Source: Patescibacteria group bacterium
GTDB taxonomy: Bacteria > Patescibacteriota > Microgenomatia > Levybacterales > GWA1-39-11
Direction of reading: 5' to 3'
DNA length: 64,000 nucleotides
Assembly (NCBI GenBank): GCA_035549315.1
Contig: DASZRC010000012.1
Location: forward strand, 5,082 to 69,081
This document shows positions 4,889 to 62,295 of the stretch, piece after piece. The stretch's first letter is position 1. Each line of letters begins with the position of its first letter. The notes under the pieces are model-generated. The model ran no database searches and was not told the origin of the DNA. It was given only the letters and a program-made list of their open reading frames with translations. The position numbers were made by a program, and so were the translations under genes.

Positions 4889-4895
4889 ACATAAT

Positions 4896-7800
4896 ATGAA
4901 AGCAAAAAAAGATAAATACAAAAAAAATAACCTGTCTGCAGGCAGACAGAAAAATCTAAAAGTCAGAACAAAGACTATCAAGAAAAATAAATTGAAGACA
5001 ACTAAAAAAGTTGTTAAGAGAAGGGTGTCGGTTAAAAAAGTAACCCCGGCTTTTGGATTTGTGAAATTCATTGAAAGGGAAGAAAAGCTTTTGGAACAAG
5101 AATTTTTTACTCCCGCATTTGGATTTAACAAACACAACAGCAAAAGCTCAAAATCACTGTACTTTATAGATAGTCTATTTATTAATAACAAAGCACACAA
5201 TCTGAATAAAATACTTAGACATAAAAGGACTAAGACAATTTTACAAATTTCAAAAGTTACGGCCGTTTATTTGGCAATTATTTATATGTCGGTAGGAAAC
5301 TTTGCCCCTGTTTATGCTCAGGCTTTAGGTCAGGCGGTTGATAATCTGGTTTCCCAAGCAAGCAGTTCAGCTCTTTTTGCCCCACGTGTTGCTCTTCCTA
5401 TCCCGCAGCTAATTAAACCTTTTGTAGGTGATCACCCTGTTTCAAGGATTTATGGAGATACGGATTTGGATCACCAAGATAGCGCTTTTGGGAGAGCATT
5501 ATCAATTGCAGAGGGACCAAAAGGTAATAACGGATTAGACTTTTCAATGCCACTTGGGACACCACTTGTTGCAGTAGATGATGGAACAATTATTCAAGCG
5601 GGTAGTGGGGATTATGGAACAACTGTTGTAATAAAAAATTCTTGGGGAAAAAGCCTTTACGGACATTTAAGTGAAATTGGTAATTACAATGTTACAAATG
5701 GAGGCAACACAAATGACAATAGAAAACTCCAGCCCGGTGATCAAGTTAAAAAAGGAGATATTATTGGATGGGCAGGACAAACGGGGCTCGCAACAGGACC
5801 CCATCTTCATTTTGGCCTAAAAGATTCAAATGATAATTGGGTAGATCCGGCAAACTATCTTGGACTTCCACAATTTGCTGCAAAAGATCCTAATGCAACC
5901 GGATCGGCAACTTTAGCAAGTCTTGGTAGTCAGGTTTTGGGTATTGAAACAAATAACTTGGAGGCAAGTTTATCGGCAACAAGCAGAAGACCATCGGCTT
6001 TTGATGATAAATTAAATGATTCTTCCGAGCATTTTAGATACAGAAAAATTCTTAATCGTGGCGTAAACGCCCATTTTTGGGATAAGGATAAAAAGAAAGC
6101 GGACTTTTCCCTAACTGATGATTCAGGAAAGAGTAGTTTATCTTTTACATTAAGACAAGATAGCAACGCCACTGATTCGGCAGCGCCAACTGTTAACGGT
6201 GAAGAGTTAACTTATCCCGTAACAGTAGGTGGAGTTGATGCGGTTTTGAAATATACGGTAACTGATAATCAGGTAAAGGAACAAATTGTTTTTGATAAAA
6301 AACCAGATATATCAAATGATTTAAACATTGTTTTTGATACACAAGTTAATGGATTAAAAACAACATCAAACAATGGACAATACAATTTAAAATCAGATGA
6401 TGGATCAGATAATTGGACAATCCAAACACCAAATGTTGTTGATAGTAAAGGGGATAATGGTCAAATAATAGGAGTTTTGGATGGATCAACCTATACGCTA
6501 AAAATTGATAAAGATTTTCTTGATAAAGCTAACTATCCAATAACTGTTGACCCAACAGTTGTAATAAACACTTCATCAGACCTTAATGCTACCCAAGCAT
6601 CAACCCAGCATCACATTGTTAGAACAAGTGACGGAACACTTCACTCATTTGTTCAAGTTGGCACGCAAACTGCAACATGTGGTGGATCATCAAAATCAGG
6701 TCTTCTTTGGTTTAACTCAACAGATAATGGTGCAACATGGACATGTCAGGCGCAGCTTTCTAGCGACACAACAAATCTTTTTTATGCTGATGCCCGCGTT
6801 GATACATCGGATAACATATATGTAGTTTATTCCGTAAATACAACGGGTAGAAATAATGCGTATGATGTTATTTACCAAAAAATAAGCTATAACGGATCTT
6901 CTTCTTGGACAGCCCAAACTCCACAAACGGTTCTTGATGGATCAGGGAGTGCTACTGCTTATTCATATGCAACGATAGAGCTTGAGTCAACAACGCGCGC
7001 TTGGATAGCAACTCGTTATTATGATGGGACAAATTATGGTGTGACTGTTCAATATTCAAATAGTCTAGGTAATGCGCCAACCTGGACGCAATCAATCTCA
7101 AACCTTGATACAGTCGGGTCGACAAACACAAAACACATTCCTACAATGATCCGTTTTGGTACAAGCATAGGAGTTATTTGGAGTGATCAAACTGCCAATG
7201 GACTCTATTGGAGGACAAGAGGAGACTCTGACTCCTTATCTTCTTGGACAGCTCAAGTTGCAGTATTTACAGCAACAGGTCTTGTGACTCCAACTTTTGC
7301 GGCAGCAACAGATAACCAAGGACATATATATGTTGCAACAAATGCCGCAACTAGTGTTTATCTAAATTACTTCAATGGTGCTACGTGGACGGCAGCACTT
7401 ACCGTATCTTCAGCTGCAGCATCCGCTGCTTTCGTATCTCTTTCAACAGATGGAGATAATGTGTGGGTATTTTATGGAGATACAACAAATCTTGCTGCCG
7501 GACTATCCGGTAATAGAAGATTAGTTTACAAAGAATGTTATCCTCCATTTTTAGTAACGGCTGATTGCGACACAAACTCAACAAGTGTTAATTCTTATCA
7601 AGATATTTTTGATAAATCTTGGGCATTTAGGGCAACAGGATCTGTTTATACAGATGTCACAACGGCTGCCGGTAACACAACTACGGCGGATGTTTTTAAC
7701 TCATCCTCAACAAAGATGGTATCCGCACTTGGGGACATAATTTATTTTGGAAAAACTGTTCAATATGATGCAATTTCTTGGGCAATATCAACGGCTGGAG

Positions 7801-13430: not shown

Positions 13431-14249
13431 ATGGCCAAGAAAAAGATTAGTGAAGCAGAAATTGAAAAAAACGAGGAAGTAGCGCCCTTAGTTATAGAGG
13501 AAGCGCCTAAAAAATCAAAGTTATCTTTGACTAGCCATAGCATAGCCTATCTTATTGTTCTTTTTGTAATAATACTTTGCTTTATTGGAATGGCATTCTT
13601 CTATGTCAAATTCCAAAATTCTATAAATAAGTCATTTGGAGTTCCTACAATTGGGGCGCCAAATACCCCGGATAAAAATAAAGAACTGCTTGATGCTGTC
13701 TCAAAAATCGCAGAGTTACCTCCTAATGAAACGCCAACTTTTGCTACGGTTTCAGATGTTACAAAGCTTTCAGGCCAAAGTTTTTTTGCTAATGCCCAAA
13801 ATGGTGATCAGGTTTTAATTTATAACAACGCAAAGAAAGCTTATCTTTATAGGCCAAGTACGGGAAAGATAGTCAATATTGGCCCGGTTGCATTGAGTAA
13901 TGATACTGTTCCTTCAGAATCTGCTTCCCCATCAGCAGCAGCTACTCCAACAGCTTTGCCAAAAGTTGTAATACTTAACGGATCAACAAAAGTGGGTCTT
14001 ACTAAGATTGCAGATTCAAAACTCAAGGCAGATAAGGTCAAGGTGCAGGTTGCTGACCGCGATAACGCAAGACTAAATACATACCAAGATACTTTGGTGG
14101 TTGATATTACCGGTCAACACAAGGATGCAATAGCTTCAATAATTAAAGCCATAGGCGGTAAACAGGCTCCATTGCCAAAAGGAGAAGTAGCATCTTCAAG
14201 CGCAGATATATTAATAATTTTGGGTTCAGATTTTAACTCCGCTCAATAA
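13431..14249 (+). CDS. membrane-anchored LytR_C (LytR/CpsA/Psr C-terminal) domain protein
   Basis: Single TM (IAYLIVLFVIILCFIGMAFFYV). C-terminal 'VVILNGSTKVGLTKIADSKLKADKVKVQVADRDNARLNTYQDTLVV' matches the LytR cell-envelope-related C-terminal domain pattern. Confidence 0.55.
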   Translation: MAKKKISEAEIEKNEEVAPLVIEEAPKKSKLSLTSHSIAYLIVLFVIILCFIGMAFFYVKFQNSINKSFGVPTIGAPNTPDKNKELLDAVSKIAELPPNETPTFATVSDVTKLSGQSFFANAQNGDQVLIYNNAKKAYLYRPSTGKIVNIGPVALSNDTVPSESASPSAAATPTALPKVVILNGSTKVGLTKIADSKLKADKVKVQVADRDNARLNTYQDTLVVDITGQHKDAIASIIKAIGGKQAPLPKGEVASSSADILIILGSDFNSAQ

Positions 14250-17035
14250 GAAGAAGATAGTCTCTTTCTAAGTACCCTGTGAGCATAGAACAGCCACACA
14301 ATTATTGTCAGAATAGTAGCAATTATGAAGGGTAGAGTTGTAATAAGTCCGACCGTCTTAATAAATATAGTCTCAAATAAGATACAAGCTACTAGTAAAA
14401 GCTCAAAGCTAAATCCTACCAAATTTTCCATTCCGGCTAATAGAGTGCTAATCAAACTCTGTGAATCAGCCTCGTTTTTACGCGTCAAGGTAAACTGGAG
14501 TTTATGACTGGGGTAGGTTAGGCTATAGTCTTTTAATATTTCATTGGCGTAGCCATTTTTTGATACAACTATTTTAAAAGATGAGCCGCTTAATGGCTTC
14601 TTAATAAAGAAATCGCCGGTTTTATTTGTTTTAGTTTTAGCAATAAGCTGGCCTCCATGCAAATCAAATACTTCAACCAAAGCTTGGGTTAAATGGTTTC
14701 CCTTTGTGTGATCCATAACCTCTCCATATATATACTTGTTGTGGGTATGCCTAAATATTATTTCCTCAATTTCAAAGAATAAATAGCCTGGTAGATCAAG
14801 AGGCCTAATATGAGTTTTAACACTCAAGGCAGAAACTGTTGTAATAAGTAAAAGTAATAGGGATAGGGTAGCTATTAGATAGAAAAATCTATTAGAGCTT
14901 GCTAGCGCTGCAAGATAAAGAGATGTTGTTTGATAAAAATCACTAATTGTTGAGGCATAATAATCTATAATTACAAAAATATTGAGACCAACCGAACTTA
15001 GGTAAACTTGCGGATAATTTCCCTTTCCGGGACCAATTTCAAATCTTATTTCTTTTGGAGAGTACCCAATTGCTTCAACAACTATTTTATATTGGCCTTG
15101 GGGTAGAGTGATGCCAATCGTGCCATCCTTATTAGTATAAATTGGGTTTTGAATATTAAGAACACTTGGGGAGATTAGGGTATAGATTCTGCTATATGTA
15201 TTGTATACAAAAAGAGTTACTCTAGCGCCCTCTATAGGTTTTTTACTTTTGGCACTAAAGACATGAAGCGGGGTTACAAAGTTAAGGTTTGCTATTTTCT
15301 GTTCTGCTATATTGCCGCTAAAGTCTGCTATCTGGACATATAATTCATAATCCCCCGGAACCGATTGTCCAAGTAGCCTACCTATATATATACCCGGTTG
15401 GATTTCTGTTATTTCTACATTTTCAGAGCTTAAATTAGTCGTGACGGGTGGAGTTAGAGTATTTATTCCTAGAACTGTTTTTGATTTCAAAATTGCCCTG
15501 ATTCTTTTGATAGGTATGTTTTTCTGAAGTGAAAACCTAAATTCGTAAGGTGCATTGATAGGCATAACTATGGTTGGGGGCTGGTTGAGGCTTCCGCTAC
15601 CTGTTGCAGGATTTGCTCCGGAGGAGATGATATTGTTGTTGCTCGAGGTTATAAGGCTATTTATATTAACTTGTGGGCTTTCAGAAAGGGTAGCAGTAGT
15701 TAAAACATATATATCAGAGTTTATTTCTTCGCCAACTGCGTTTGTGGCTGTAATTGTAAAATAGTAGGTTGTAGAAGGGGTTAGGTCTGAAAGATTAATA
15801 GTAAAGTTTGTAGATTGATTTTTAGGCTTAATAATTTTTGTAAGTGCGGTTGGATCTATTCCGTAGCTAAAGACAATATTGGCAGCTTCATTTAGACTTG
15901 TAGAAATCTGGGCGGTTGAAGATGTTATTGAATCAATAGAAATTGTATTGAATGCAAACGGATTTGATGGATTAGGGGTCACGGTTGGACCTGGGGTACT
16001 TGTTGGTCCGGGCCCAGATGTAGGATTGGGGCCCGCCGTAGGCGTAGGGGTTGGAGTAGGGGCTCCCTCATATAAATAGTCAGATGTGACCGTGGAGTCG
16101 GGTGTCTGCGTGCCTGGCCCAACAACTCTTCCGTTTACGGAAAAGGATACGGTATTTGTGCCTGTATAAGCACTATTTGTTTTTAGCTGAAAAGTTACGG
16201 TTTGACCAGTGGTGTTGCCCGGAAAAACAGGAATGTGCCAAGTGATTTTTCTATTCACTGTATCTACAATTGGGGTTGCGCCTCCATATCCGTTACTAGC
16301 ACTGCCTATGACATAATCAAGAATATCCACTGTTGGAATGCCTGATCCAGATATTGTTCCTAGGCTCCAATCAGCCTCAACGTCTATGGTTGCACCATAA
16401 GATAAATTTGAGCCATAAGTTAGGGTATAGGTAAGAGTTGTATTTTGAGGGAAAGTAGAGCCACTTGGGTTTGTCAAAGCCAAGCTTGCATCAAAGTCTG
16501 TAGGGTTGGCAGCAACCGCCGCGCTTACATTTATCTGGTCATTAGCCACAATTGTCAGTCCATAGTCACCACTGTCAATTGGGGCTCCGCCGCTAGTTCT
16601 TGTTGTCAGTGTACCGCTTTTTTCGCCAAGAGTGCTAGTTGTTAATGTATTAGCGGCTGAGAAGTTAAAGCAATATGTAGTGCCGGTTGCTAGATTGCCA
16701 CTTGGGAAAGTAACGGTTTGGCCGGATACGCCAGTTGCGGTACCAATGCCGGGCCAAGCGCTTGCACCGGTTAAAAGATTTGTTGTGGTTACTGTCCAAT
16801 TAGCCGGATTATTATTTACACTAAATCCATTTGGAAAAGTTATTGATACCAAACCTTCCGTGGCATTAGATGTTGGTTGTCCGCAAATCATTCCACCAGT
16901 TGTTGTATTTGGTATTAGCCGGTCAAGTCTTACAAGCGTTGTTGATAAGTCTGAGGCCTCGGTCAGAGACATAAATGGAGATAAAATCCCAAGGAAAGCT
17001 ATAAGAATAATAAGGTAGGACAGGCACCTTTTCAT
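14243..17035 (-). CDS. large secreted/membrane surface protein with PT-linker, carboxypeptidase-regulatory-like beta-sandwich segments and C-terminal TM helices
   Basis: Signal peptide MKRCLSYLIILIAFLGILSPFMSLTEA; PT linker 'PTPTPTPTAGPNPTSGPGPTSTPGPTVTPNPSNP'; 'KPIEGARVTLFVYNT...DGTIGITLPQGQYKIVVEAIGYSPKEIRFE' and 'EVFDLHGGQLIAKTKTNKTGDFFIKKPLSGSSFKIVVSKNGYANE' are CarboxypepD_reg-like; several hydrophobic helices in the C-terminal third. Confidence 0.6.
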   Translation of the reverse strand: MKRCLSYLIILIAFLGILSPFMSLTEASDLSTTLVRLDRLIPNTTTGGMICGQPTSNATEGLVSITFPNGFSVNNNPANWTVTTTNLLTGASAWPGIGTATGVSGQTVTFPSGNLATGTTYCFNFSAANTLTTSTLGEKSGTLTTRTSGGAPIDSGDYGLTIVANDQINVSAAVAANPTDFDASLALTNPSGSTFPQNTTLTYTLTYGSNLSYGATIDVEADWSLGTISGSGIPTVDILDYVIGSASNGYGGATPIVDTVNRKITWHIPVFPGNTTGQTVTFQLKTNSAYTGTNTVSFSVNGRVVGPGTQTPDSTVTSDYLYEGAPTPTPTPTAGPNPTSGPGPTSTPGPTVTPNPSNPFAFNTISIDSITSSTAQISTSLNEAANIVFSYGIDPTALTKIIKPKNQSTNFTINLSDLTPSTTYYFTITATNAVGEEINSDIYVLTTATLSESPQVNINSLITSSNNNIISSGANPATGSGSLNQPPTIVMPINAPYEFRFSLQKNIPIKRIRAILKSKTVLGINTLTPPVTTNLSSENVEITEIQPGIYIGRLLGQSVPGDYELYVQIADFSGNIAEQKIANLNFVTPLHVFSAKSKKPIEGARVTLFVYNTYSRIYTLISPSVLNIQNPIYTNKDGTIGITLPQGQYKIVVEAIGYSPKEIRFEIGPGKGNYPQVYLSSVGLNIFVIIDYYASTISDFYQTTSLYLAALASSNRFFYLIATLSLLLLLITTVSALSVKTHIRPLDLPGYLFFEIEEIIFRHTHNKYIYGEVMDHTKGNHLTQALVEVFDLHGGQLIAKTKTNKTGDFFIKKPLSGSSFKIVVSKNGYANEILKDYSLTYPSHKLQFTLTRKNEADSQSLISTLLAGMENLVGFSFELLLVACILFETIFIKTVGLITTLPFIIATILTIIVWLFYAHRVLRKRLSSSY

Positions 17036-19491: not shown

Positions 19492-21804
19492 CTAGGGACG
19501 GATCGTGTAGCTAAACTTTGCTCTGTACATATTTCCGCCTCCAAATGTACCCGTTGGTGAACCGCTGTTTCCGGCTGCTCCCAGAGTCTTGTAGTACATT
19601 GCTAGCCAGTGAGCAGAGGAGAATGTAAGTGGTGTGTAGCCACTAATAGCCGGTTGGGTTGTACCTCCTGCAGTAGCCATAACCAAAACATGAACCTCAT
19701 TATTGGAGAACGTTGTAACCGGTGACCATGTTTCTGCCCCCATAGTTACAAATCCATTTGTGACACTGCTTATACCATCTATTGGGTTACCACTTGTTAC
19801 AGCATTTCTCCATACCTGTCCTTCTAGAAGTTGGTTAGAGTCTCCGCTGGTTGCTAAGTTGAGTGTGTATTTGGCACTTGATTCTCCGCTTGCACGTTTC
19901 CATGCTACATATACGCCATTGTTTGTGTAGTTGTTGGTTACAAATTCTGTAAATCCGGCCGGCCAAGTTCTAGTTGCAGATGCTGCAGCTTGTGAATTCT
20001 TGTATGTAAGGATGATTATGTCATTGTTAGCAGGAATTTGGCTAAAGGTTATATTAGGTGTTTTTGATCCCCAAGTTGGTGATGATACTGTTTGCTGTTG
20101 CAAAGTTATTGGTGAAGCATTTGGTGTAGGTGTAGCTGTAGGCTCTACAGTTGGTGTAGGTGTAGGTGTGTCTGTAGGTGTAGCTGTTGGCGCAGTTGTA
20201 GGTGTATCACTTGGTGCCAATGTTGCACTTGGTGCTTCTGTTGGTGTAGGTGTGCCGCCAATTACTTGTTGTGACCAAACTGCAAAGTCCCTAGCTCCAA
20301 GAGCGTATCCCCAGTATCCTGATGGTGGAGCAACTTTAACCATTACACTTGTTAGGCCCTCTGGAATTGGCACAAAGTATCCGGAAGCATCTTCTACCTT
20401 ACGTATAGTCTTATTAGGAGAAACCAAATTCCAGGTCGTACCGTTGTCATAACTTAAACTAATTGCGCCAACTGCTGAAAAGCGAAGGTAGGCGCCAACT
20501 GGTGATGGAGCATCAAAGGAAACCTTAGCAGTTCCACCTGTCCTTTGGTTTAGGCCTAAGAACTCTGGTGTTGTGTGAATTATTGTAAATGGAATAGTAG
20601 GAGACATTGTAATGTTATCCCAGTGCCACGTAGTAGCAGTTGCTGAATAACCAATAGTTTGGTAGGTAACCCCATTGCTCGTCACCGTAGAACCTATTGC
20701 GGTTGGCCAAGTTGGTTGTGTTGCTCCCGATGTTCCAGCCACTGTAACTTGGTAAGTACGAAGTTCTGTACCGGATGTAGGTTTTACTATGTCCCCAACG
20801 GCATAGTCATGATTTGCTTGCCAACTTGGGTAACAGTTATCAAGACAAATTCCTTTTACTGGATTATAGCTGTGTTGTGTAAATTGGACTACACCATCTC
20901 CAAATGTAAGTGGAGTTGTAAGATCTTTATCAAATATTACAAAGTTTTTCTCAGGCATGTAGAATTTAATGTGGGTTTTGCTAATTTCGATTGTAAACAG
21001 GTCGCGAGTTATTTTACTTGGGGTAAGTACTGATCTCCAGTTAGAGTATGTTTGGTATACTGTGCTTCCGCCAGACCCATTTGGTACCAAGAGCTCCCAG
21101 GAAACAGTATTTGTACCTGCTCCAAACATAAGTAATCCTACGTATGGATTGTTTGGTGGACCTTGTAGGTCAACGTTATCAAATCCAGTTTGGATTGGGA
21201 GGGTAATATTGTTTGCCCAAGGGGTTATGTAAAATTCTAGCCAGTCGCGGTCTGAGTTTCTGTTTGTACTCATGCGCCAAGATATTGTTGCTGTACCATC
21301 AGCAAAATTTATCATTTGGTTTGGAGTAAGCGCAATCATTCCATATCCGGCTCCGGAAATTGCTGTCATAATGTGGTTTTTACAGTTGAATATTCCAGTT
21401 TCTGCCATGTGTTCTTCATGTGTTGCCGGAGGGGCTGAACAATCAGCACCGTGATCTGCTACCATGCTGTCAAACACGTCGTTCATGTGGTCACGTTCAT
21501 GTAGTTGAACATCAAATTTTGCATATTGGGGCATTAGGTTAAATGCAAGTGGTGCTGTTGGTGCTCCGTCAAAAGTTTCACAAAATCCTACACAGTCTGG
21601 AGAGTCTGCATAGTTTTTGGTTTCAGAGTTTCTTTTTAAACCAATAAGTCCAAAATTTCCAAGACCGTCAAGTGGACCAAAGTAAAGAATGGTTGAGAAT
21701 ATTAAAAGAAGACCAAAACCGGTGGCAAGGTAAAGTCTTTTGCTCTTGCTAAAACTACTTGAGAAATCTGTCTTTAGTTTCTTCCAGTTAAGATTGAATA
21801 ACAT
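19492..21804 (-). CDS. membrane-anchored extracellular protein with PT-linker and C-terminal beta-rich domain
   Basis: N-terminal TM (LYLATGFGLLLIFSTILYFG); Cys-containing N-domain; linker 'TPTPTEAPSATLAPSDTPTTAPTATPTDTPTPTPTVEPTATPTPN'; no catalytic motif recognised. Confidence 0.55.
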   Translation of the reverse strand: MLFNLNWKKLKTDFSSSFSKSKRLYLATGFGLLLIFSTILYFGPLDGLGNFGLIGLKRNSETKNYADSPDCVGFCETFDGAPTAPLAFNLMPQYAKFDVQLHERDHMNDVFDSMVADHGADCSAPPATHEEHMAETGIFNCKNHIMTAISGAGYGMIALTPNQMINFADGTATISWRMSTNRNSDRDWLEFYITPWANNITLPIQTGFDNVDLQGPPNNPYVGLLMFGAGTNTVSWELLVPNGSGGSTVYQTYSNWRSVLTPSKITRDLFTIEISKTHIKFYMPEKNFVIFDKDLTTPLTFGDGVVQFTQHSYNPVKGICLDNCYPSWQANHDYAVGDIVKPTSGTELRTYQVTVAGTSGATQPTWPTAIGSTVTSNGVTYQTIGYSATATTWHWDNITMSPTIPFTIIHTTPEFLGLNQRTGGTAKVSFDAPSPVGAYLRFSAVGAISLSYDNGTTWNLVSPNKTIRKVEDASGYFVPIPEGLTSVMVKVAPPSGYWGYALGARDFAVWSQQVIGGTPTPTEAPSATLAPSDTPTTAPTATPTDTPTPTPTVEPTATPTPNASPITLQQQTVSSPTWGSKTPNITFSQIPANNDIIILTYKNSQAAASATRTWPAGFTEFVTNNYTNNGVYVAWKRASGESSAKYTLNLATSGDSNQLLEGQVWRNAVTSGNPIDGISSVTNGFVTMGAETWSPVTTFSNNEVHVLVMATAGGTTQPAISGYTPLTFSSAHWLAMYYKTLGAAGNSGSPTGTFGGGNMYRAKFSYTIRP

Positions 21805-25167: not shown

Positions 25168-25803
25168 TTACACAAAATTCTCTATAAAATCTGTTCTGTG
25201 GTGGATTGTAGCGCCATGTGTTTTAAGCGCCATTCTATGTTCTAGACTCCCATAGCCTTTGTTTCTTCCCCAACCATATTCCGGAAAATCCCGAGACAGC
25301 TTTCTCATATATTCATCTCGAGCTTCTTTTGCAATTACGCTCGCTGCTGCAATAGAAAGGCAAATTGAATCTCCCTTTACAATTCCTTTTTGATTTTTTA
25401 ACCCAACACCTTTTATGTATTTGATTCTAAAACCATCCATTAAGACGTAGGGCTTATTAGTGCCGAGTTTTTTTACAATTTCTCTTGCCGCTTTATATGT
25501 TGCCTTACCAATTCCAATTTTGTTTATCTCATTAACCTCTATGTTGCTTATGTAGTAAGACAAACACTCATCCTTAATAATTTTTGAAAGCTTTTTCCTT
25601 TCCGTGTGTTTTAGTTTTTTGGAATCATTTATGCCGTAGGATAAAAGTTTAGCGATTCGTTTTTCACTGATCGTTGAATCAAATATTACTCCGGCAACAT
25701 AAAGGGGGCCGGCAAAGCAGCCTCTCCCTACCTCATCTATACCAATTGCAGAAAATCCATTCCTCCACAGCTCCAGCTCGTAATTTAGATTGGGAAACGT
25801 CAT
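25168..25803 (-). CDS. rnhB: ribonuclease HII
   Basis: 'GIDEVGRGCFAGPLYVAGVIF' RNase HII signature; start chosen at MTFPNLN (25803) rather than the longer Cys-rich N-terminal extension in the ORF track. Confidence 0.85.
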   Translation of the reverse strand: MTFPNLNYELELWRNGFSAIGIDEVGRGCFAGPLYVAGVIFDSTISEKRIAKLLSYGINDSKKLKHTERKKLSKIIKDECLSYYISNIEVNEINKIGIGKATYKAAREIVKKLGTNKPYVLMDGFRIKYIKGVGLKNQKGIVKGDSICLSIAAASVIAKEARDEYMRKLSRDFPEYGWGRNKGYGSLEHRMALKTHGATIHHRTDFIENFV

Positions 25804-25868
25804 GACCAATTTATAGCAAATAAAACCACATTTGAAAAGCAAACAAGTTATACATATAATATCCATTC

Positions 25869-26408
25869 ATGAGTGCAGAACATTATTTTGATATTAATTT
25901 AAACGGGGAAGATTTTACTAAGAATATCTCGGTCAGAAGAGAGAGGGAGGTTGGTAGGTCGCCAATAAATATAATGGCAAATGACATGATTAGTGAGGGA
26001 ATAATGGGTATTAGTGATGTTGGTAGGAAAACTCCCAATGTAAGCTTCGATGTTAACTCTGGTATGGTTCTATTTGGAGAAGGTTTAATTGCAATAGAGA
26101 GAATGATTTGGGACAGAGAATTTAATCTAAGTGAAATTCAAGCAGATATGATGCGTAAGGGTTCTGCCTATGATGTAAGATTTACTTTTCCAACAAGTGA
26201 GGGGCCGGTTGCAATCTCCGATGCTGAGTGGACAAAGATGAGAGATGCTGCAGTCAAGGATAAAACACTAGCATGTTTTTATGAAGATACAACTTTGCTT
26301 CCAGAGGTTGCAAGAAGGTTTGTGACAAGAGATATGACAAAACTTAGAACAATCAGGGAAAAAATTCTGCCAAAATACAAAACCCTAGCTATTCAGGTTT
26401 GCAAATAG
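25869..26408 (+). CDS. hypothetical protein (N-terminus MSAEHYF)
   Basis: 179-aa ORF divergent from rnhB; N-terminus shared with the next ORF. Confidence 0.45.
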   Translation: MSAEHYFDINLNGEDFTKNISVRREREVGRSPINIMANDMISEGIMGISDVGRKTPNVSFDVNSGMVLFGEGLIAIERMIWDREFNLSEIQADMMRKGSAYDVRFTFPTSEGPVAISDAEWTKMRDAAVKDKTLACFYEDTTLLPEVARRFVTRDMTKLRTIREKILPKYKTLAIQVCK

Positions 26409-27138: not shown

Positions 27139-28113
27139 ATGGATGGAAATGTTATAGAAGCGCTTCGCGGTGTAATACCAGAAACCAGAAGAAGAATGGT
27201 TGAGGCTAGAAAAAATAATCCCCCAAGGCAAATGCCAAATATTGACTGGTCTGGAAGGTATGACCGCTTTGGTATTAGGAAGGGAGCCATTGCTCTTGGT
27301 GTTTCTGCCGGAATTGTTTTGGGTGGTCCATCAGCAGCTCACGTAGGTGAGAATGCAATTAATTCTATTCTTCCGGATAATCACTCTTCTCATGTTTTGG
27401 TTACAGAAGCAGGAATGCCCTCTCAAAATCTTCCAATAACACATGACAATCCAAATCCTCCGGCAGCAAAAATTGAGCAATCAAATCCAAATGTTTTAAT
27501 CTCGGAAGTTAAAGGAGTAAGGGCTGTAAACGGATACTTTGAGTCTAGTCCTCGTTTGATAAGTGATTCAAATAAAGAAGCAGATATAAAAGCCCTAGTT
27601 GATAAGTTGATGCCGGAAGTTCCAATGGGTCTTAAAGAGAACGCAAAAGTTTCTCTTCCAATGATATTAAAAGCACTGCATGATGAGGGCATTGATACGC
27701 CAAAAGTAATAGCTTTTGCTTTGGCAAATTGTGAACCGGAAAATGATTTAAAAGTTGATAAGGAGGAGATAGGCGGAGGAGCAGGGTTTAATTATAGTGG
27801 AGGGGATAAGTGGCATGCTAGGGGGTTAAGTGATTTAACACAGGACTATAACTATGAAAAATATGGAAAAAGACTAGGTATTGATTTGGTAAATAATCCA
27901 GATCTTGCTAAAGATGAAAGATATTCGGCTAAATTATATGCAGCTTTTCTAAAAGATGAGGGGATTGCAGACATGGTAAATAGAGGTGAGGTAGACGCAG
28001 CTAGAAGAAAATTTGGTGGAGATTTTGACGACAACAAGAATCCTTATAATGCTCAAATTCTGCACTATGTTATTCAGAGGACTAATGCGTATTACTTCCG
28101 CATGAAGAATTAA
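27139..28113 (+). CDS. membrane-anchored glycoside hydrolase family 19-like (chitinase/lysozyme-type) protein
   Basis: C-terminal 'GGDKWHARGLSDLTQDYNYEKYGKRLGIDLVNNPDLAKDERYSAKLYAAFL' matches the GH19 core (RGPIQLT..NY..G..LG.DLL.NPDLV); hydrophobic segment 'GAIALGVSAGIVLGGPSAAHVG' near the N-terminus. Confidence 0.6.
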   Translation: MDGNVIEALRGVIPETRRRMVEARKNNPPRQMPNIDWSGRYDRFGIRKGAIALGVSAGIVLGGPSAAHVGENAINSILPDNHSSHVLVTEAGMPSQNLPITHDNPNPPAAKIEQSNPNVLISEVKGVRAVNGYFESSPRLISDSNKEADIKALVDKLMPEVPMGLKENAKVSLPMILKALHDEGIDTPKVIAFALANCEPENDLKVDKEEIGGGAGFNYSGGDKWHARGLSDLTQDYNYEKYGKRLGIDLVNNPDLAKDERYSAKLYAAFLKDEGIADMVNRGEVDAARRKFGGDFDDNKNPYNAQILHYVIQRTNAYYFRMKN

Positions 28114-28250
28114 TTTGTTGTGAGGATTGCGGGAGAGGGCATTAGTTTTTCGCTTGTGAAAGCTAGTAGTTTTTTAGACTACAGACTTATATTCTCCCCC
28201 GCAAGAACGCGTTTGGCTTGTGGCCTTAGCGTTAATCCACACCTTCGTTA

Positions 28251-28637
28251 TTAGGGATCTACTGTTGGTTCCGGACCTATTGCTTTGGTTTTGCTTCTCG
28301 AGCTCTCTTCTATGAGCGTTACGTCTATTTCAATTTCCCCATAGGCAGTTACGACAGATTCTAAATCTGCGATCAACTGATCGATTAGCTGATCGTCGCC
28401 ATCTTTGGGGCGTGGAATCGAGCTTGAGGAAACCGGAAAGTAAACTTTTAAAGCAATTTCCCCGCCATCGTAATAGTCCACCTGTGGAATCCAGCGAACA
28501 GGAATCGAGGTACCTTGTTTTAGGCTGGGAAAGGCCTTCCTAATAGATGCTTGCCATAAGTGGGCGAGTTCTTCTCGGCTTTCGAACCCAATGTCGTCGA
28601 TCATGTTCCCATCAATAAACGCATGGACTTCGTGCAC
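28251..28637 (-). CDS. hypothetical acidic protein (GTG start) in GC-rich islet
   Basis: 128-aa ORF; GTG start with GAGAGG 8 nt upstream; local GC ~48-50% versus ~37% background. Confidence 0.4.
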   Translation of the reverse strand: MHEVHAFIDGNMIDDIGFESREELAHLWQASIRKAFPSLKQGTSIPVRWIPQVDYYDGGEIALKVYFPVSSSSIPRPKDGDDQLIDQLIADLESVVTAYGEIEIDVTLIEESSRSKTKAIGPEPTVDP

Positions 28638-28684
28638 TTGATTGGCCTCTCGTTGAATATGTTGCTAGCTAGTTGGTTATGTGA

Positions 28685-28783
28685 CTAGGCCGGGATGTTG
28701 ATGGGTGGATCTTCGCCAAAGATAATGTCGATTACCTTGACAAGAATGAGTACCGCCAGCGCGACGATAATGATCTTCTTCAC
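28685..28783 (-). CDS. candidate 32-aa single-TM peptide (VKKIIIVALAVLILVKVIDIIFGEDPPINIPA)
   Basis: GTG start 7 nt after GAGGAG and 11 nt downstream of the zinc-ribbon ORF stop (translational coupling); not in the ORF track (<60 aa). Confidence 0.25.
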   Translation of the reverse strand: MKKIIIVALAVLILVKVIDIIFGEDPPINIPA

Positions 28784-28796
28784 CGTTTTCTCCTCT

Positions 28797-28979
28797 CTAG
28801 TGTTCGTCCATGAACAGACAAGGGCAGGGCCGTTGTGTGCCTTTCTCGCCGTTGTCTATCACAGCTTTGCCATTGCAGCGACTGCAGTTGCCCAACGCTA
28901 TCTTGTGAACTGGTTCATGTGGCCAGTCTTCCAAGACTTTTTGGGGAACTTCCTTACCGTTTCGAGCTGTTGCTTCCAC
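28797..28979 (-). CDS. small 4-Cys zinc-ribbon protein (60 aa)
   Basis: C-x2-C-x17-C-x-C (CSRCNGKAV...RPCPCLF); GTG start with GGGAGG 5 nt upstream; lies in the GC-rich islet. Confidence 0.35.
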   Translation of the reverse strand: MEATARNGKEVPQKVLEDWPHEPVHKIALGNCSRCNGKAVIDNGEKGTQRPCPCLFMDEH

Positions 28980-29162
28980 GTATTCCTCCCAAAAGATATT
29001 AGTATTTCCCTAATGTGTGAAGGTGCAAATAAAGCGTCCCGACGGGGGGCACCTTATTTGTGACATGCTATCGCTTTCGCGAAAATCACAGAACGTACCT
29101 CCACAGGGAACTTTGAAGGAAATTATAACAAATTAGAGGACATTTTACAAAAAACTATAAGA

Positions 29163-30199: not shown

Positions 30200-30886
30200 T
30201 TAATTATTCTTAAGAGATACGAGAATTCCTTTTATTTCATCCATTATATCTTTATCGGCAGGATCTGGAGTTGTTATTGTTATTGCTCCAAAAGATGTCG
30301 GGGCGCCATATGTTTTTCCATCTGTTGATGAGCATACCGTGTAATTAATTTTCCCCGGCTGGTTTCCCGTTTTATTCCAAGAAATCCTAAATTTAGTTGT
30401 ACCATCTACTTGAGTAAAATCCGTAAACTTTTGTGCCATTGGTTGGTCCGCGTCTCCCGGGTACAAACATCCGCCGCCTCCAATCGGAGCTCTGTAAATA
30501 GATAGAGAATAAGCGCCTTTTGTAATTGTGAGTTTATCCGTAATATCTGTTTTTTCTTGTGTATCTGTCCATCCACCTGGAATCTTTACGGAATATGCCT
30601 TAAAACTGCTTCCTGTAGCATTAGGCAAGTTAATTGTTTTAGATGGTAGGGTTGTTAGGGTTGGGCTGGTAGAGGCACTAGGTGTACTTGTAACCATGAC
30701 TTCCTTAGTCGGCATAGCAGTTGGTGTAGGAACTGGCGAATTTTGTTTCTTAGCAATATCACCTATATAGTATCCGCCACCAATAAGTACGGCAGTTGCA
30801 ATAATTATTGCCATGAGCTTTCCAAAAAGGGAAAAGAAGTCCCTTTTTTCACCACTTGATGAGTGATCGTCATCCATTAGGTGCAA
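30200..30886 (-). CDS. membrane-anchored hypothetical protein with PT-rich linker
   Basis: TM 'LMAIIIATAVLIGGGYYIG'; linker 'PVPTPTAMPTKEVMVTSTPSASTSPTLTTLPS'; Cys-containing C-domain. Confidence 0.5.
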   Translation of the reverse strand: MHLMDDDHSSSGEKRDFFSLFGKLMAIIIATAVLIGGGYYIGDIAKKQNSPVPTPTAMPTKEVMVTSTPSASTSPTLTTLPSKTINLPNATGSSFKAYSVKIPGGWTDTQEKTDITDKLTITKGAYSLSIYRAPIGGGGCLYPGDADQPMAQKFTDFTQVDGTTKFRISWNKTGNQPGKINYTVCSSTDGKTYGAPTSFGAITITTPDPADKDIMDEIKGILVSLKNN

Positions 30887-30916: not shown

Positions 30917-32323
30917 TTAATTTGCAAAGTCTTGTGTTGCCATGAGTCCGTAGTGGGGGTCTGATACTACACCAATTCCAATTCTGTTGTAGGCTCCATT
31001 CAAAATATTGGCGCGGTGACCTGCAGAATTCATCCATGCATTAACAATAATGTCAGCTGTTGGTCCGGCTCCTATGTTTTCTGCAGCGGCAGTAAATGTT
31101 ACTCCTCCAATTTTCATTCTTTGGAAGGGATCAAGTCCATCCGGATTAATATGTTCAAAGAAATTACGGGTTACCATATCTTGGCTGTGGGCGCGTGCAA
31201 CATTAGAAATGGTTGGATCAAGAGTTAGTGCGCCAAGCCCATTTTGAGCTCTTTGGGCATTTGTAAGCCTTAATATATCAAGTTCTGCTTGGTTGGTATC
31301 GCTTTGTGGCTGCTGAGTTACTGGTTGTTGTCCGCCACTTGGCTGATTGGGAGTGCTTGTTGGTTGTACAAATGGAGGAGTAGTAGGCTGTACTTGTTGG
31401 TATTGGAAAGGTGGTTGTGTGGGCGCAGCAATAGTTGGTTGGACTTGTTGTCCACCAGATGGCTGAGGTGTGGGGGTAGCAGTAGGTGGAAAAATAAAAA
31501 ATCCTTTTGCTGGTCCGGCGGCTGGCGGAGGAGTAGGCTCTATATTTTGTCCCTGACTATTATATGGAGGAGTAGGCGTAGGTAGAAAATGCAAGCTAAA
31601 ACTATATTTGGGCGCTTGAGTGGGGGTAGCGCCTGTTGGCTGATTATTTGTTGGTGGTACAAAAGCCTGCTGTCCGCCATTATTATCCTTCTGAGCATCT
31701 ACATTTTGCTTAAAATTGTCTACAGCTTTTTGGCTTGGTTGGCTTTTGTTATTTTCTGAATCAGAGTATGTGTCATAGGTAAAAGGATCTTTTATATGAT
31801 ATGCAACTCCATTAAATATTCCGGTATCTTTTAGACCAAGCGGAGCATAATAAATTTTGTAAGACAGTGGTTTTACTATTTTGGAATCCCCTATATATGT
31901 TTGTAATTTAGGGTGAGTTGTACTTGCCGAAACTAAAAATGTAAATACAAAAAAGCATATGAAAAATGAAGCTACAAGGGATGGAAAAATATTTAGGATC
32001 CAATCAATATGATGAAAGAAAACAAACCTATCTATCCCCGTAGATTTACCGGTTACTGTAAAAAATATTTTTTTAAAATTGAAAAAACGCCACAAGATAA
32101 TAAATAAAACTCCTTGGATAATTAATGCTTCCTGTAGGTTTGTTATTGGTAATTTGAATGGATTAGCTGAGGAGACAATTACACCCACTGCAATACAGAT
32201 AATTGTTATTACCAAAAATTTGGTGAAAGAGTAGAAAGAATAAAACCAACCTAACTTATATATAGTTAGGGCAACGAGTAAAAAAGCAGAAACTCCAACA
32301 GCATCAACTAAAGGGATGTACAT
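30917..32323 (-). CDS. polytopic membrane protein with Pro/Gln-rich linker and C-terminal CAP/SCP/PR-1 (YkwD-like) domain
   Basis: C-terminal 'LNAQRAQNGLGALTLDP...ARAHSQDMVTRNFFEH...AENIGAG...NAWMNSAGHRANILNGAYNRIGIGVV' fits the CAP superfamily. Confidence 0.65.
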   Translation of the reverse strand: MYIPLVDAVGVSAFLLVALTIYKLGWFYSFYSFTKFLVITIICIAVGVIVSSANPFKLPITNLQEALIIQGVLFIILWRFFNFKKIFFTVTGKSTGIDRFVFFHHIDWILNIFPSLVASFFICFFVFTFLVSASTTHPKLQTYIGDSKIVKPLSYKIYYAPLGLKDTGIFNGVAYHIKDPFTYDTYSDSENNKSQPSQKAVDNFKQNVDAQKDNNGGQQAFVPPTNNQPTGATPTQAPKYSFSLHFLPTPTPPYNSQGQNIEPTPPPAAGPAKGFFIFPPTATPTPQPSGGQQVQPTIAAPTQPPFQYQQVQPTTPPFVQPTSTPNQPSGGQQPVTQQPQSDTNQAELDILRLTNAQRAQNGLGALTLDPTISNVARAHSQDMVTRNFFEHINPDGLDPFQRMKIGGVTFTAAAENIGAGPTADIIVNAWMNSAGHRANILNGAYNRIGIGVVSDPHYGLMATQDFAN

Positions 32324-61843: not shown

Positions 61844-61847
61844 AAAA

Positions 61848-62270
61848 TTATTCTGTTTGAATTCCCATTGACCTTGCAACACCTTTAACTATCTTTGCTG
61901 CCTGACCAACGTCTTTTGTATTAAGATCTTCGAGTTTTATTTCTGCAATGTCTCTTGCTTGTTGGTCTGTTAATTTTCCGGCAACATCCCGCCCTGGTTT
62001 AGAAGAAGCCTTTTCAAGCTTAAGAGCTTTTTTGATAAGTTCTGGGACTGGTGGTTTTTTAACTATGAAAGAAAAAGTTCTATCTTCATAAACTGTTATA
62101 ACAACAGGAAGAACAGTACCTTTTTGATCTGCGGTTTTGTCATTGAATGCCTTAACGAAATCCATTATAGGAAGTCCGTGTGGTCCAAGAGCTGTACCAA
62201 CCGGAGGTGCAGGAGTTGCCTCTCCACCTTTTACGTTTAATTTTATAAGTGTCTTAATCTTTTTAGCCAT
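61848..62270 (-). CDS. rplK: 50S ribosomal protein L11
   Basis: 'MAKKIKTLIKLNVKGGEATPAPPVGTALGPHGLPIMDFVKAFN' canonical L11. Confidence 0.9.
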   Translation of the reverse strand: MAKKIKTLIKLNVKGGEATPAPPVGTALGPHGLPIMDFVKAFNDKTADQKGTVLPVVITVYEDRTFSFIVKKPPVPELIKKALKLEKASSKPGRDVAGKLTDQQARDIAEIKLEDLNTKDVGQAAKIVKGVARSMGIQTE

Positions 62271-62295
62271 GTTTTTTGTTTTAAGTTTTAGTTAT

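What the first reader, a model, noticed from the sequence alone, without database searches (positions are those of the whole stretch)
28110..29110. ~1 kb GC-rich islet with three GTG-initiated, strongly SD-preceded small ORFs including a zinc-ribbon and a 32-aa TM peptide
Between the GH19 gene and the 2-hydroxyacid dehydrogenase gene, GC rises to ~48-50% against ~36-38% elsewhere. On the minus strand: a 60-aa 4-Cys zinc-ribbon ORF (GGGAGG-N5-GTG). 11 nt after its stop comes a 32-aa hydrophobic peptide (GAGGAG-N7-GTG). Then a 128-aa acidic protein (GAGAGG-N8-GTG). GTG starts plus strong SDs differ from the surrounding genes, suggesting foreign origin. A Zn-ribbon plus tiny membrane peptide could be a toxin/antitoxin-like or regulatory module. 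The opposite-strand 122-aa ORF (28695..29063) is probably a GC artefact.
Basis: seen in the sequence. Interest (0 to 1): 0.6.

Follow-up and report, generated by a model that had tools for sequence, protein, structure and literature searches.

The report
Conserved small operon flanked by RNA-like elements
The GC-rich kilobase is not foreign DNA: it is a native, probably highly expressed two-gene locus of a rarely sampled soil Patescibacteria lineage, and its most conserved parts are two non-coding, probably structured RNA elements at its 5' and 3' ends that match no known RNA family.

Summary
In detail: GC is 0.47-0.49 over 28200-29100 against 0.39 for the window, and all four ORFs exist. The interpretation mostly fails. 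The only available relative (another Patescibacteria MAG, neighbours 74-81% identical in protein) carries the same GC-rich islet in the same place. It has a 127-aa homologue (49% identity) and a 56-aa four-Cys homologue (40%, all Cys kept), both starting with ATG. The 32-aa membrane ORF and the plus-strand 122-aa ORF are absent there. The coding GC excess is a T-to-C shift at third codon positions only. Both genomes show it, and ribosomal-protein genes in the window show a weaker version, so it looks like codon bias of highly expressed native genes rather than foreign origin. The new finding lies in the non-coding ends. A ~128-nt element after the 128-aa gene is 93% identical between genomes where neutral sites are ~50% identical. 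A ~112-nt 5' leader is 80% identical; it follows a conserved extended -10 promoter and contains a terminator-like hairpin. Both fold stably, and neither has an Rfam match or a second copy. Both proteins lack detectable homologues outside these two genomes. Best reading: an attenuator-controlled small operon with a conserved structured 3' RNA. With two genomes, covariation support is thin.

The parts
29122..29150 (-). Promoter of the operon: -35 TTGTAA (29150-29145), 17-nt spacer, TG-extended -10 TATAAT (29127-29122). It starts 13 nt after the stop of the 2-hydroxyacid dehydrogenase gene.
   Evidence: Consensus scan gives 10 of 12 matches plus TG. In L002 the hexamers TTGATA-17-TATAAT sit at the same place, and the spacer sequence has diverged.
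29004..29115 (-). Conserved 5' leader (~112 nt), predicted as a three-way junction. P1 pairs 29110-29097 with 29024-29006. The P2 hairpin is 29090-29059. The P3 terminator-like hairpin is 29058-29027, followed by UUUAUUU.
   Evidence: 80% identical to L002 where neutral 4-fold sites are 50% identical (P about 8e-11). MFE is -46.5 kcal/mol, z -3.0. P2 and P3 keep their shape in both genomes, each with one fully compensatory pair plus one-sided compatible changes. No Rfam match at E<=10. No conserved leader peptide (read).
28985..28990 (-). Shine-Dalgarno GGGAGG of the Zn-ribbon gene, 5 nt before the GTG.
   Evidence: L002 has AAGGAGG before its ATG.
28797..28979 (-). Small Cys4 zinc-ribbon/knuckle-like protein gene (60 aa; CxxCxG...PCxC...D-x-H at the C-terminus), unannotated in public protein sets.
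   Evidence: A 56-aa homologue lies at the same position in L002 with all four Cys, the start and the C-terminal D-x-H conserved. pN 0.43 against pS 0.69. Not in any protein collection. No Pfam, NCBIfam, PADLOC, PHROG or PDB match.
28685..28783 (-). 32-aa hydrophobic ORF (MKKIIIVALAVLILVKVIDIIFGEDPPINIPA), specific to this genome; status uncertain.
   Evidence: Its SD GAGGAG overlaps the upstream stop, and its third positions are C-rich (14 of 32), like the two real genes (read). The whole ~140-nt segment is absent from L002, so nothing supports it by conservation.
28251..28637 (-). 128-aa acidic protein gene (pI 4.45) with a predicted beta-alpha-beta-beta-alpha-beta (ferredoxin-like) topology; a family of two members (annotated 'hypothetical protein VG917_01635').
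   Evidence: 127-aa homologue in L002, 49% identity. pN 0.30 against pS 0.76. HMMER against 1.84 billion representatives finds only itself and the L002 protein. AlphaFold pLDDT is 53.6-58.7. Foldseek gives only weak, generic ferredoxin-like hits.
28118..28246 (-). Highly conserved ~128-nt 3' element, starting about 5 nt after the 128-aa stop codon and ending about 5 nt before the stop of the convergent GH19-like gene. Predicted branched fold: a closing stem, one hairpin, and a long stem carrying two hairpins.
   Evidence: 118 of 127 positions are identical to L002 (93%) against 50% at neutral sites (P about 3e-25). Together with 25800-25899 (a coding stretch, also 0.92) it is the most conserved stretch in a 6-kb syntenic block. 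Minus-strand MFE is -39 kcal/mol, z -3.3; plus strand z -1.8. The open plus-strand frame across it shows 8 non-synonymous changes and 1 synonymous change, so the constraint is not on a protein. No Rfam match and no second copy.
28695..29063 (+). Plus-strand 122-aa ORF: an artefact of the GC-rich antisense strand, though one gene caller took it.
   Evidence: Not conserved in L002, where plus-strand ORFs in this stretch reach only 43 aa. The Logan assembly's gene caller called it in place of the Zn-ribbon gene.

Best explanation
The islet is a native, lineage-restricted, probably highly expressed small operon of a soil Patescibacteria lineage. A near-consensus extended -10 promoter, just after the dehydrogenase gene, starts a ~135-nt leader RNA. 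The leader folds into a conserved three-way junction that includes an intrinsic-terminator-like hairpin (P3) with a U-tract. I infer that this leader is an attenuator: by default many transcripts, and read-through from the dehydrogenase gene, end at P3, and a signal I cannot identify (protein, small molecule or RNA) allows read-through. Read-through expresses a 60-aa Cys4 zinc-ribbon protein, in this genome possibly a 32-aa membrane peptide, and a 128-aa acidic protein with a predicted ferredoxin-like topology. The transcript ends in a ~128-nt branched structured RNA. This RNA is under stronger purifying selection than any neighbouring protein. I infer that it is a functional 3' RNA domain, either a stabilising and terminating structure between convergent genes or a stable 3'-derived small RNA. 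Shown: synteny, the coding status of two ORFs, nucleotide-level constraint on both ends, stable folds, the conserved promoter, and a codon bias of the C-ending type. Inferred: that the constraint acts through RNA structure, the attenuation mechanism, high expression, and the role of the 3' element. The high GC has two ordinary causes: GC-rich structured RNA ends in an AT-rich genome, and a preference for C-ending codons in the genes.
For: Synteny and equal GC elevation in L002. The same locus appears in an independent Logan assembly, which argues against a chimera. The two genes are coding. Synonymous sites are saturated (pS 0.61-0.76) and 4-fold sites are 50% identical. Against that baseline the 3' element is 93% identical and the leader 80%. 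Fold z-scores are -3.3 and -3.0. The P2 and P3 hairpins are kept through compensatory and compatible changes, including a conserved bulged A. Promoter hexamers are conserved while the spacer has diverged. The GC3 excess is T3-to-C3 only. NNC/(NNC+NNU) is 62-67% in the islet genes against 27-29% in neighbours, in both genomes (Fisher 2e-5 and 1e-6). The next-highest ORFs include ribosomal proteins L11 and L1 and NusG. That structured RNAs stand out as GC-rich intergenic stretches in AT-rich genomes is the stated premise of published discovery pipelines (abstracts of PMC8632094 and PMC6429828, listed).
Against: Only two genomes are available, so covariation is minimal. In the 3' element, 4 of 10 changes fall in predicted pairs and 2 of the 3 touched pairs break at helix ends (P = 0.12 for avoidance of stems). 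P1 of the leader is nearly invariant and its one change breaks a pair. No antiterminator could be identified. P3 is weak in L002 (-8.7 kcal/mol). P1's 3' strand lies downstream of P3, so P1 cannot gate termination in the simple way. No transcript data exist, so strand, ends and expression level are all inferred. The protein functions are unknown, and both proteins are acidic to neutral, which argues against their being partners of the RNA.
Confidence: 0.6

Rival explanations
1. The conserved ends are ordinary DNA or transcript signals and not specialised RNAs. On this view the 5' block is the dehydrogenase terminator plus the operon promoter and operator sites. The 3' block is a large bidirectional terminator or protein-binding region between convergent genes.
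For: P3 looks like a bidirectional intrinsic terminator (A-tract, GC stem, U-tract) and lies 100-135 nt after the dehydrogenase stop. The 3' element sits exactly between two convergent stop codons. Covariation support for the branched folds is weak.
Against: Terminators and promoters constrain tens of nucleotides, not about 128 contiguous nucleotides at 93% identity when neutral sites are at 50%. The 3' element has no hairpin followed by a U-run on either strand. Conserved leader blocks lie in the junction and P1 strands, and the hairpin tips vary with compensation. That is the pattern of a folded RNA core.
Confidence: 0.2
2. One reading: the islet is horizontally acquired foreign DNA carrying a toxin/antitoxin-like or regulatory module made of a zinc-ribbon protein and a small membrane peptide.
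For: GC and GC3 are outliers. The proteins have no homologues beyond the L002 pair and evolve fast (omega about 0.3 against 0.10-0.13 for neighbours). The 32-aa ORF has a good SD and is strongly hydrophobic.
Against: The islet is syntenic in the relative. The 32-aa ORF is absent there, and the GTG starts are ATG there. The GC3 excess is only T-to-C and is unchanged in G and A, unlike DNA from a GC-richer donor. It persists in both genomes although synonymous sites are saturated. There are no flanking repeats, tRNA or mobility genes, no PADLOC or PHROG hit, and no phage or plasmid similarity.
Confidence: 0.05
3. The 3' element is an independent small-RNA gene, or it belongs to the plus strand as the 3' UTR of the GH19-like gene, and has no functional link to the two small proteins.
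For: It is far more conserved than the adjacent genes. The plus strand also folds well (-43.3 kcal/mol). It begins 8 nt after the GH19-like stop codon.
Against: No promoter-like site precedes it on either strand. The minus-strand fold is more unusual than the plus-strand fold (z -3.3 against -1.8). One U-G pair on the minus strand becomes C-G in L002; on the plus strand the same positions would be an A-C mismatch.
Confidence: 0.1
4. The whole ~1 kb is one long structured non-coding RNA, and the minus-strand ORFs are accidental.
For: Both ends are conserved and structured and the middle is variable. The Zn-ribbon ORF is not called by public annotation.
Against: Codon-position periodicity of substitutions and pN well below pS in the 128-aa ORF. 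ORFs are intact with SDs in both genomes and all four Cys are conserved. The coding regions have no more mRNA structure than control genes under synonymous shuffling (z -0.5 to -1.6).
Confidence: 0.03

Closest known systems
Terminator-containing 5' leader RNAs (riboswitches and protein- or RNA-dependent attenuators), including terminator-embedded aptamers such as the HMP-PP (thiS) riboswitch (PMC6478431, abstract only)
   Same: Promoter, then a ~110-nt conserved folded leader with a GC stem plus U-tract before the first gene's SD. The junction is conserved, and the hairpin tips vary but stay compensated.
   Different: No match to any of 4227 Rfam families. No ligand, antiterminator or second representative in the genome is known. 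The downstream genes are of unknown function and give no clue to a ligand. The long-range helix P1 encloses the terminator instead of competing with it.
GC-rich intergenic structured ncRNA candidates in AT-rich bacterial genomes (GC-IGR discovery approach; PMC6429828, PMC8632094, PMC11109978, abstracts only)
   Same: Non-coding stretches with GC 0.45-0.47 in a 0.39 genome, stable folds, and strong sequence conservation.
   Different: Here the two elements bracket two real small genes, so the 'islet' is only partly intergenic. Only two representatives exist, too few for the covariation tests those studies rely on.
3'-UTR-derived or 3'-UTR-embedded bacterial small RNAs (my own knowledge; not tested here)
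   Same: A conserved structured RNA directly after a stop codon, with no promoter of its own detected.
   Different: It has no terminal hairpin plus U-tract typical of such sRNAs, it is branched and ~128 nt long, and no target or chaperone is known.
Small Cys4 zinc-ribbon/knuckle proteins with a DnaJ-like CxxCxGxG motif, e.g. Bacillus anti-TRAP (my own knowledge)
   Same: Length of 56-60 aa. CxxCxG (window) or CxxCGGxG (L002), followed by a second Cys pair.
   Different: No significant Pfam hit (best: zf-CCHC at E 0.015 and TtuA_LIM_N at E 0.051, both below cut-off). The second pair is CxC, not CxxC. There is no sequence similarity to any solved structure.
Type I toxin-antitoxin loci (small hydrophobic toxin plus antisense RNA)
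   Same: A 32-aa ORF with a basic N-terminus and a hydrophobic helix, with a good SD.
   Different: The ORF is absent from the only relative. No antisense promoter or RNA is evident, and the ORF sits inside an operon between two conserved genes.

Membership tests
Any Rfam 15 RNA family (riboswitches, leaders, sRNAs, ribozymes, SRP/6S/tmRNA/RNase P) | Covariance-model score at or above the family's gathering threshold | tested here: not met
   Only three tRNAs reach threshold in the whole window. At E<=10 on the islet alone, on each element alone and on the L002 islet, only chance-level hits appear (14-15 bits against thresholds of 34-75).
Intrinsic-terminator attenuator / riboswitch expression platform | GC-rich hairpin followed by a U-tract, located between promoter and start codon | tested here: met
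   P3 at 29058-29027 is followed by UUUAUUU. It folds at -13.8 kcal/mol in the window and -8.7 in L002, with the same shape. It lies between the conserved promoter and the SD.
Intrinsic-terminator attenuator / riboswitch expression platform | A mutually exclusive antiterminator (or anti-antiterminator) pairing conserved across representatives | tested here: inconclusive
   Inspection found only short alternative pairings (AAGGUGC with GCACCUU; GUUCC with GGGAC or GGAAC). None is clearly competitive with P3, and two sequences are too few.
Metabolite riboswitch | Aptamer recurring upstream of functionally related genes, which allows a ligand to be inferred | tested here: not met
   The leader is single-copy in 115 kb of held sequence. 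The downstream genes are of unknown function.
Horizontally acquired genomic islet | Absent from the syntenic position in relatives | tested here: not met
   Present between the same two genes in L002. Only one relative could be examined.
Horizontally acquired genomic islet | Donor-like base composition at all synonymous positions; flanking repeats, tRNA or mobility genes | tested here: not met
   Only C3 rises, at the expense of T3; G3 and A3 are unchanged. There are no flanking direct repeats of note and no adjacent tRNA. The neighbours are housekeeping-type genes.
Type I toxin-antitoxin | Conserved small hydrophobic toxin ORF with an overlapping or antisense regulatory RNA | tested here: not met
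   The 32-aa ORF and its ~140-nt segment are missing in L002. No antisense promoter was found in the scan.
Known anti-phage defence systems (PADLOC-DB 2.0) | HMM match of a component protein | tested here: not met
   No families at E<=1 for all four proteins.
IS200/IS605-type element (small ferredoxin-like HUH transposase with structured ends) | HUH motif and catalytic Tyr in the ~130-150-aa protein; multiple copies or variable location | tested here: not met
   IS608 TnpA appears only among weak Foldseek hits (E 0.05, TM 0.26-0.39). No His-hydrophobic-His is conserved between the two homologues. The locus is single-copy and syntenic.
Zinc ribbon / DnaJ-type CxxCxGxG zinc finger | Four conserved Zn-ligand Cys in two knuckles | tested here: met
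   C32, C35, C52 and C54 are invariant between the two homologues.
Zinc ribbon / DnaJ-type CxxCxGxG zinc finger | Significant profile match to a curated zinc-finger family | tested here: not met
   Best hits are below cut-off: TtuA_LIM_N at 14.1 bits (cut-off 27) and zf-CCHC at 15.8 bits (cut-off 20.8).
Ferredoxin-like (beta-alpha-beta-beta-alpha-beta) fold proteins | Confident structural match | tested here: inconclusive
   The predicted secondary-structure order fits, but pLDDT is 53.6-58.7. The best Foldseek E-values are 6e-3 (PDB) and 1.2e-3 (BFVD), with TM about 0.4.

The most novel reading that the evidence does not exclude
One or both conserved ends are founding members of new structured-RNA classes specific to a Patescibacteria lineage. 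The leader would be a new ligand- or factor-sensing attenuator controlling a highly expressed operon of unknown function. The 3' element would be a new functional RNA (a stable regulatory or catalytic RNA, or the RNA partner of an unknown machinery) that evolves more slowly than every protein encoded around it.
Probability: 0.3. Interest if true: 0.7.

Novelty: new member of a known kind. Interest (0 to 1): 0.45.

Why it matters
Patescibacteria (CPR) have tiny genomes with much unknown biology and few described regulatory RNAs. A 128-nt non-coding sequence held at 93% identity, where synonymous sites are saturated, is under stronger constraint than the adjacent enzymes, so it must do something specific. 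It and the leader are concrete, testable candidates for new RNA motifs. The case is also a useful caution. A GC-rich patch with odd start codons and no detectable homologues in an AT-rich genome looked foreign. It was better explained by structured RNA plus C-ending codon preference of highly expressed native genes. The locus also contains a conserved small zinc-ribbon gene that no public annotation calls, and one gene caller annotated the antisense artefact instead.

Tried and rejected
1. Homology for the 128-aa protein. The word-indexed search of 5.8 billion proteins found only itself. Full HMMER against 1.84 billion representatives found only itself and the L002 protein, plus two repeat-protein artefacts. 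Pfam, PHROGs, NCBIfam, PADLOC and the PDB profile search gave nothing.

2. Homology for the Zn-ribbon protein. There were no candidates at all, nothing useful in PDB, and only E = 0.8 tblastn hits in phages.

3. More relatives.
- The GH19-like neighbour has only four family members. The two extra contigs (L003, L004) end 13 and 46 nt after the gene, so they show nothing of the islet.
- A metagenome scan with a 22-mer of the 3' element gave 0 hits.
- A metagenome scan with the dehydrogenase alignment gave only homologues at 27-32% identity, which are not informative.
- Six viral-contig scans (four DNA patterns, two protein alignments) gave nothing.
- blastn against phages and plasmids gave nothing.

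4. Second copies of either element. Neither blastn nor the covariance models R1 and R2 found any.

6. mRNA structure as the cause of high GC3 was rejected: synonymous-shuffle z-scores are no better than for control genes.

7. Pairing between the leader and the 3' element was not significant against shuffles.

8. A protein-coding explanation for the 3' element was rejected, because nearly all changes would be non-synonymous.

9. Leader-peptide attenuation was rejected, because the two small upstream ORFs in the window's leader lose their start codons in L002 (read).

10. A DnaA box or oriC was rejected: there is a single 1-mismatch box, the context is GC-rich, and there is no turn in GC skew.
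Full report

Yes. In 300-nt windows GC is 0.467-0.493 from 28200 to 29099. Flanks are 0.34-0.39 and the window mean is 0.387. All four ORFs exist as described. The Shine-Dalgarno contexts GGGAGG-N5-GTG and GAGAGG-N8-GTG are correct. The gap before the 32-aa ORF is 13 nt rather than 11. The 128-aa ORF has the highest third-position GC of all real ORFs of at least 100 aa in the window (0.46 against a mean of 0.30, sd 0.053). The GC peak is not unique, since 31350-31649 also reaches 0.48. An independent Logan assembly of the same organism contains the identical locus, which argues against an assembly chimera. The source is a 'Patescibacteria group bacterium' MAG.

**2. What a relative shows**

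One relative could be found. It is contig DASZYA010000030.1 of another Patescibacteria MAG (L002). Its GH19-like, 219-aa and dehydrogenase proteins are 74-81% identical to those of the window. The islet sits at the same place there, between the same two genes, with the same GC elevation of 0.46-0.50.
- L002 encodes a 127-aa homologue of the 128-aa protein (49% identity).
- It encodes a 56-aa homologue of the zinc-ribbon ORF (40% identity, with all four Cys, the start and the C-terminal D-x-H kept).
- Both start with ATG, so the GTG starts are not a property of the locus.
- The 32-aa hydrophobic ORF and about 140 nt around it are absent; only 21 nt separate the two genes.
- The plus-strand 122-aa ORF is broken into pieces of at most 43 aa.

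Substitutions in the two conserved ORFs follow coding periodicity. By codon position they are 0.38/0.27/0.56 for the 128-aa gene and 0.48/0.40/0.64 for the Zn-ribbon gene. pN is below pS in both (0.30 against 0.76, and 0.43 against 0.69). Both are therefore real genes, but they evolve about three times faster than their neighbours (omega about 0.3 against 0.10-0.13).

**3. The unexpected part: the non-coding ends**

In the DNA alignment of the two islets, the non-coding ends are much better conserved than the genes.
- Coding parts of the islet are 56-63% identical in a sliding-window comparison over 6 kb.
- The 3' non-coding stretch at 28100-28250 reaches 0.89-0.92, as high as anything in the block.
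- The 5' non-coding stretch reaches 0.72-0.79, which equals the well-conserved dehydrogenase gene.

Synonymous sites between the two genomes are saturated (pS 0.61-0.76). Fourfold-degenerate sites of the neighbouring genes are 50% identical. Against that baseline:
- the 3' element (28118-28246) has 118 of 127 positions identical, P about 3e-25;
- the leader core (29004-29115) has 89 of 111 identical, P about 8e-11.

The substitution rate in the 3' element (0.07) is lower than the non-synonymous rate of the most conserved neighbour (0.116). A plus-strand reading frame stays open across the 3' element in both genomes. Eight of the nine substitutions inside it would be non-synonymous and only one synonymous. 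That is the opposite of what protein-level constraint gives at this divergence. The constraint therefore acts on nucleotides.

**4. Anatomy of the 5' end**

The promoter starts thirteen nucleotides after the dehydrogenase stop. It reads TTGTAA, a 17-nt spacer, then a TG-extended TATAAT (29150-29122; 10 of 12 matches). L002 has TTGATA-17-TATAAT at the same place with a diverged spacer, which is the footprint of a real promoter. The RNA from about 29115 to the GTG at 28979 folds at -46.5 kcal/mol with z -3.0. The predicted fold is a three-way junction:
- a long closing helix P1 (29110-29097 paired with 29024-29006);
- hairpin P2 (29090-29059);
- hairpin P3 (29058-29027).

P3 is a GC stem flanked by an A-tract and followed by UUUAUUU, so it looks like an intrinsic terminator. 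It folds at -13.8 kcal/mol here and -8.7 in L002, with the same shape including a bulged A. The tips of P2 and P3 differ between the genomes. Each keeps pairing through one fully compensatory pair plus several one-sided compatible changes. The junction and the P1 strands are nearly invariant. The two small upstream ORFs that can be read in the window's leader lose their start codons in L002, so ribosome-mediated attenuation is unlikely.

**5. Anatomy of the 3' end**

The 3' element begins about 5 nt after the 128-aa stop. It ends about 5 nt before the stop of the convergent GH19-like gene. On the minus strand it folds at -39 kcal/mol, z -3.3. On the plus strand z is -1.8. The predicted fold has a closing stem, one hairpin, and a long G-rich stem bearing two hairpins. 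No promoter-like site precedes it on either strand, and it has no hairpin-plus-U-run terminator. Most of the changes between the genomes lie in loops, bulges and helix ends. With one pair of sequences this is not significant (P = 0.12).

**6. Comparison with known RNAs and other copies**

Neither element matches any of 4227 Rfam families, even at E<=10 on short inputs and in both genomes. Neither has a second copy in the window or in any fetched locus, by blastn or by covariance models built here. Neither is found in phage, plasmid, viral-contig or JGI metagenome collections by the probes I could use.

**7. Why the GC is high**

The two non-coding elements have GC 0.45-0.47, as expected for folded RNAs in an AT-rich genome. 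That expectation is the stated premise of published ncRNA discovery pipelines (PMC6429828 and PMC8632094, abstracts listed).

In the genes, the excess is confined to third codon positions and to one substitution class.
- C3 is 0.30-0.36 against 0.12-0.13 in neighbours.
- T3 is 0.20-0.22 against 0.37-0.39.
- A3 and G3 are unchanged.
- NNC/(NNC+NNU) is 62-67% against 27-29%, in both genomes (Fisher 2e-5 and 1e-6).

DNA from a GC-richer donor would raise G3 as well. It would also have decayed at saturated synonymous sites. Among the next-highest NNC users in the window are ribosomal proteins L11 (0.50) and L1 (0.46) and NusG (0.42), against 0.31 overall. The simplest reading is translational selection for C-ending codons in highly expressed native genes. 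This fits the strong promoter and the strong SDs. Extra mRNA structure does not explain it: synonymous-shuffle z-scores are -0.5 to -1.6, like control genes. High expression is inferred here, not measured.

**8. The proteins**

The 128-aa family has two members among 1.84 billion representative proteins. The zinc-ribbon ORFs are in no protein collection at all. No Pfam, PHROG, NCBIfam, PADLOC or PDB sequence match passes threshold. AlphaFold models are of low confidence (pLDDT 53.6 and 58.7). They give a beta-alpha-beta-beta-alpha-beta order typical of ferredoxin-like folds. Foldseek returns only weak generic hits. The proteins are acidic to neutral (pI 4.45 and 6.25), which argues against their being RNA-binding partners of the flanking RNAs. 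The 32-aa ORF has the same C3-rich codon style (14 of 32) and a coupled SD, but no conservation, so I leave it open at about even odds.

**9. Most likely mechanism**

Confidence is 0.6 for the overall picture and lower for each inferred step. A strong promoter drives a leader RNA whose conserved three-way junction contains a terminator-like hairpin. P3 probably ends dehydrogenase transcripts and many operon transcripts. An unidentified signal allows read-through into the zinc-ribbon gene, the 32-aa ORF where present, and the 128-aa gene. The transcript carries a strongly constrained structured 3' domain. That domain either stabilises and ends the transcript between convergent genes or is itself a functional small RNA.

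Rivals:
- the ends are only ordinary promoter, terminator or operator signals (0.2);
- the 3' element is an independent or plus-strand RNA (0.1);
- a foreign TA-like islet (0.05);
- one long ncRNA with accidental ORFs (0.03).

**10. Limits**

Everything comparative rests on two genomes, and this lineage is almost unsampled. The GH19-like neighbour has four relatives in 5.8 billion proteins, and JGI metagenomes hold no close relative. Strand, transcript ends, expression level and RNA folds are predictions. No antiterminator was identified, and P1 encloses rather than competes with P3, so the attenuation model is incomplete.

**11. Verdict**

The 'foreign TA-like islet' interpretation is largely refuted. 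What is there is a native small operon whose most constrained parts are two unclassified, probably structured non-coding elements. They are new candidates of a known kind (a cis-regulatory leader and a 3' structured RNA), of moderate interest and needing more sequences or transcript data.

Noticed in passing
window 28797-28979 (-) and L002 7842-8012 (-): The conserved zinc-ribbon gene is not present in any public protein collection searched. The Logan assembly's gene caller instead called the antisense plus-strand ORF (about 28701-29063), which is not conserved.
   Followed up: yes
window 27139-28113 (+): The GH19-like protein has an N-terminal hydrophobic segment. Only its C-terminal ~100 aa match GH19 (Pfam 2e-6) and a phage endolysin family (phrog_181, 3e-12). 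Its family has just four members in 5.8 billion proteins.
   Followed up: partly
window 31200-31650: A second GC peak (0.46-0.48) with strong GC skew (0.41-0.47). It lies inside the CAP-domain protein gene (about 30917-32323, minus strand). The L002 homologue has a long Pro/Thr/Gln-rich low-complexity stretch there, so this peak is probably driven by amino-acid composition.
   Followed up: partly
window 16001-17000: A third GC-rich kilobase (0.459) inside a 930-aa ORF (14243-17035, minus strand). Not examined.
   Followed up: no
window 30200-30886 (-): A 228-aa gene with an N-terminal membrane segment lies between the dehydrogenase and the CAP-domain gene in the window. It is absent from that position in L002, where the two genes are adjacent.
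   Followed up: no
window 29006-29013 and 28250-28257: The leader segment AUUAGGGA is complementary to UCCCUAAU at the very end of the 128-aa coding region, just before the 3' element. Seven of the eight pairs are kept in L002. This could be chance, since both segments are conserved for other reasons.
   Followed up: partly
window 61001-62835 (-): An L1, L11 and NusG gene cluster. These genes show elevated use of C-ending codons (0.42-0.50 against 0.31 overall), which served as the internal reference for highly expressed genes.
   Followed up: partly
window 19492-21804 (-): A 770-aa ORF with no Pfam match has an NNC codon fraction of 0.50, as high as the ribosomal-protein genes. It may be another highly expressed gene of unknown function.
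   Followed up: no
window 25800-25899: Another stretch that is 0.92 identical to L002. From the L002 gene map (RNase HII 4370-5077 minus strand, 179-aa gene 5080-5619 plus strand) it should cover the abutting starts of the RNase HII and 179-aa genes, but the window coordinates of those genes were not checked. It is therefore probably coding N-termini plus shared control signals.
   Followed up: no
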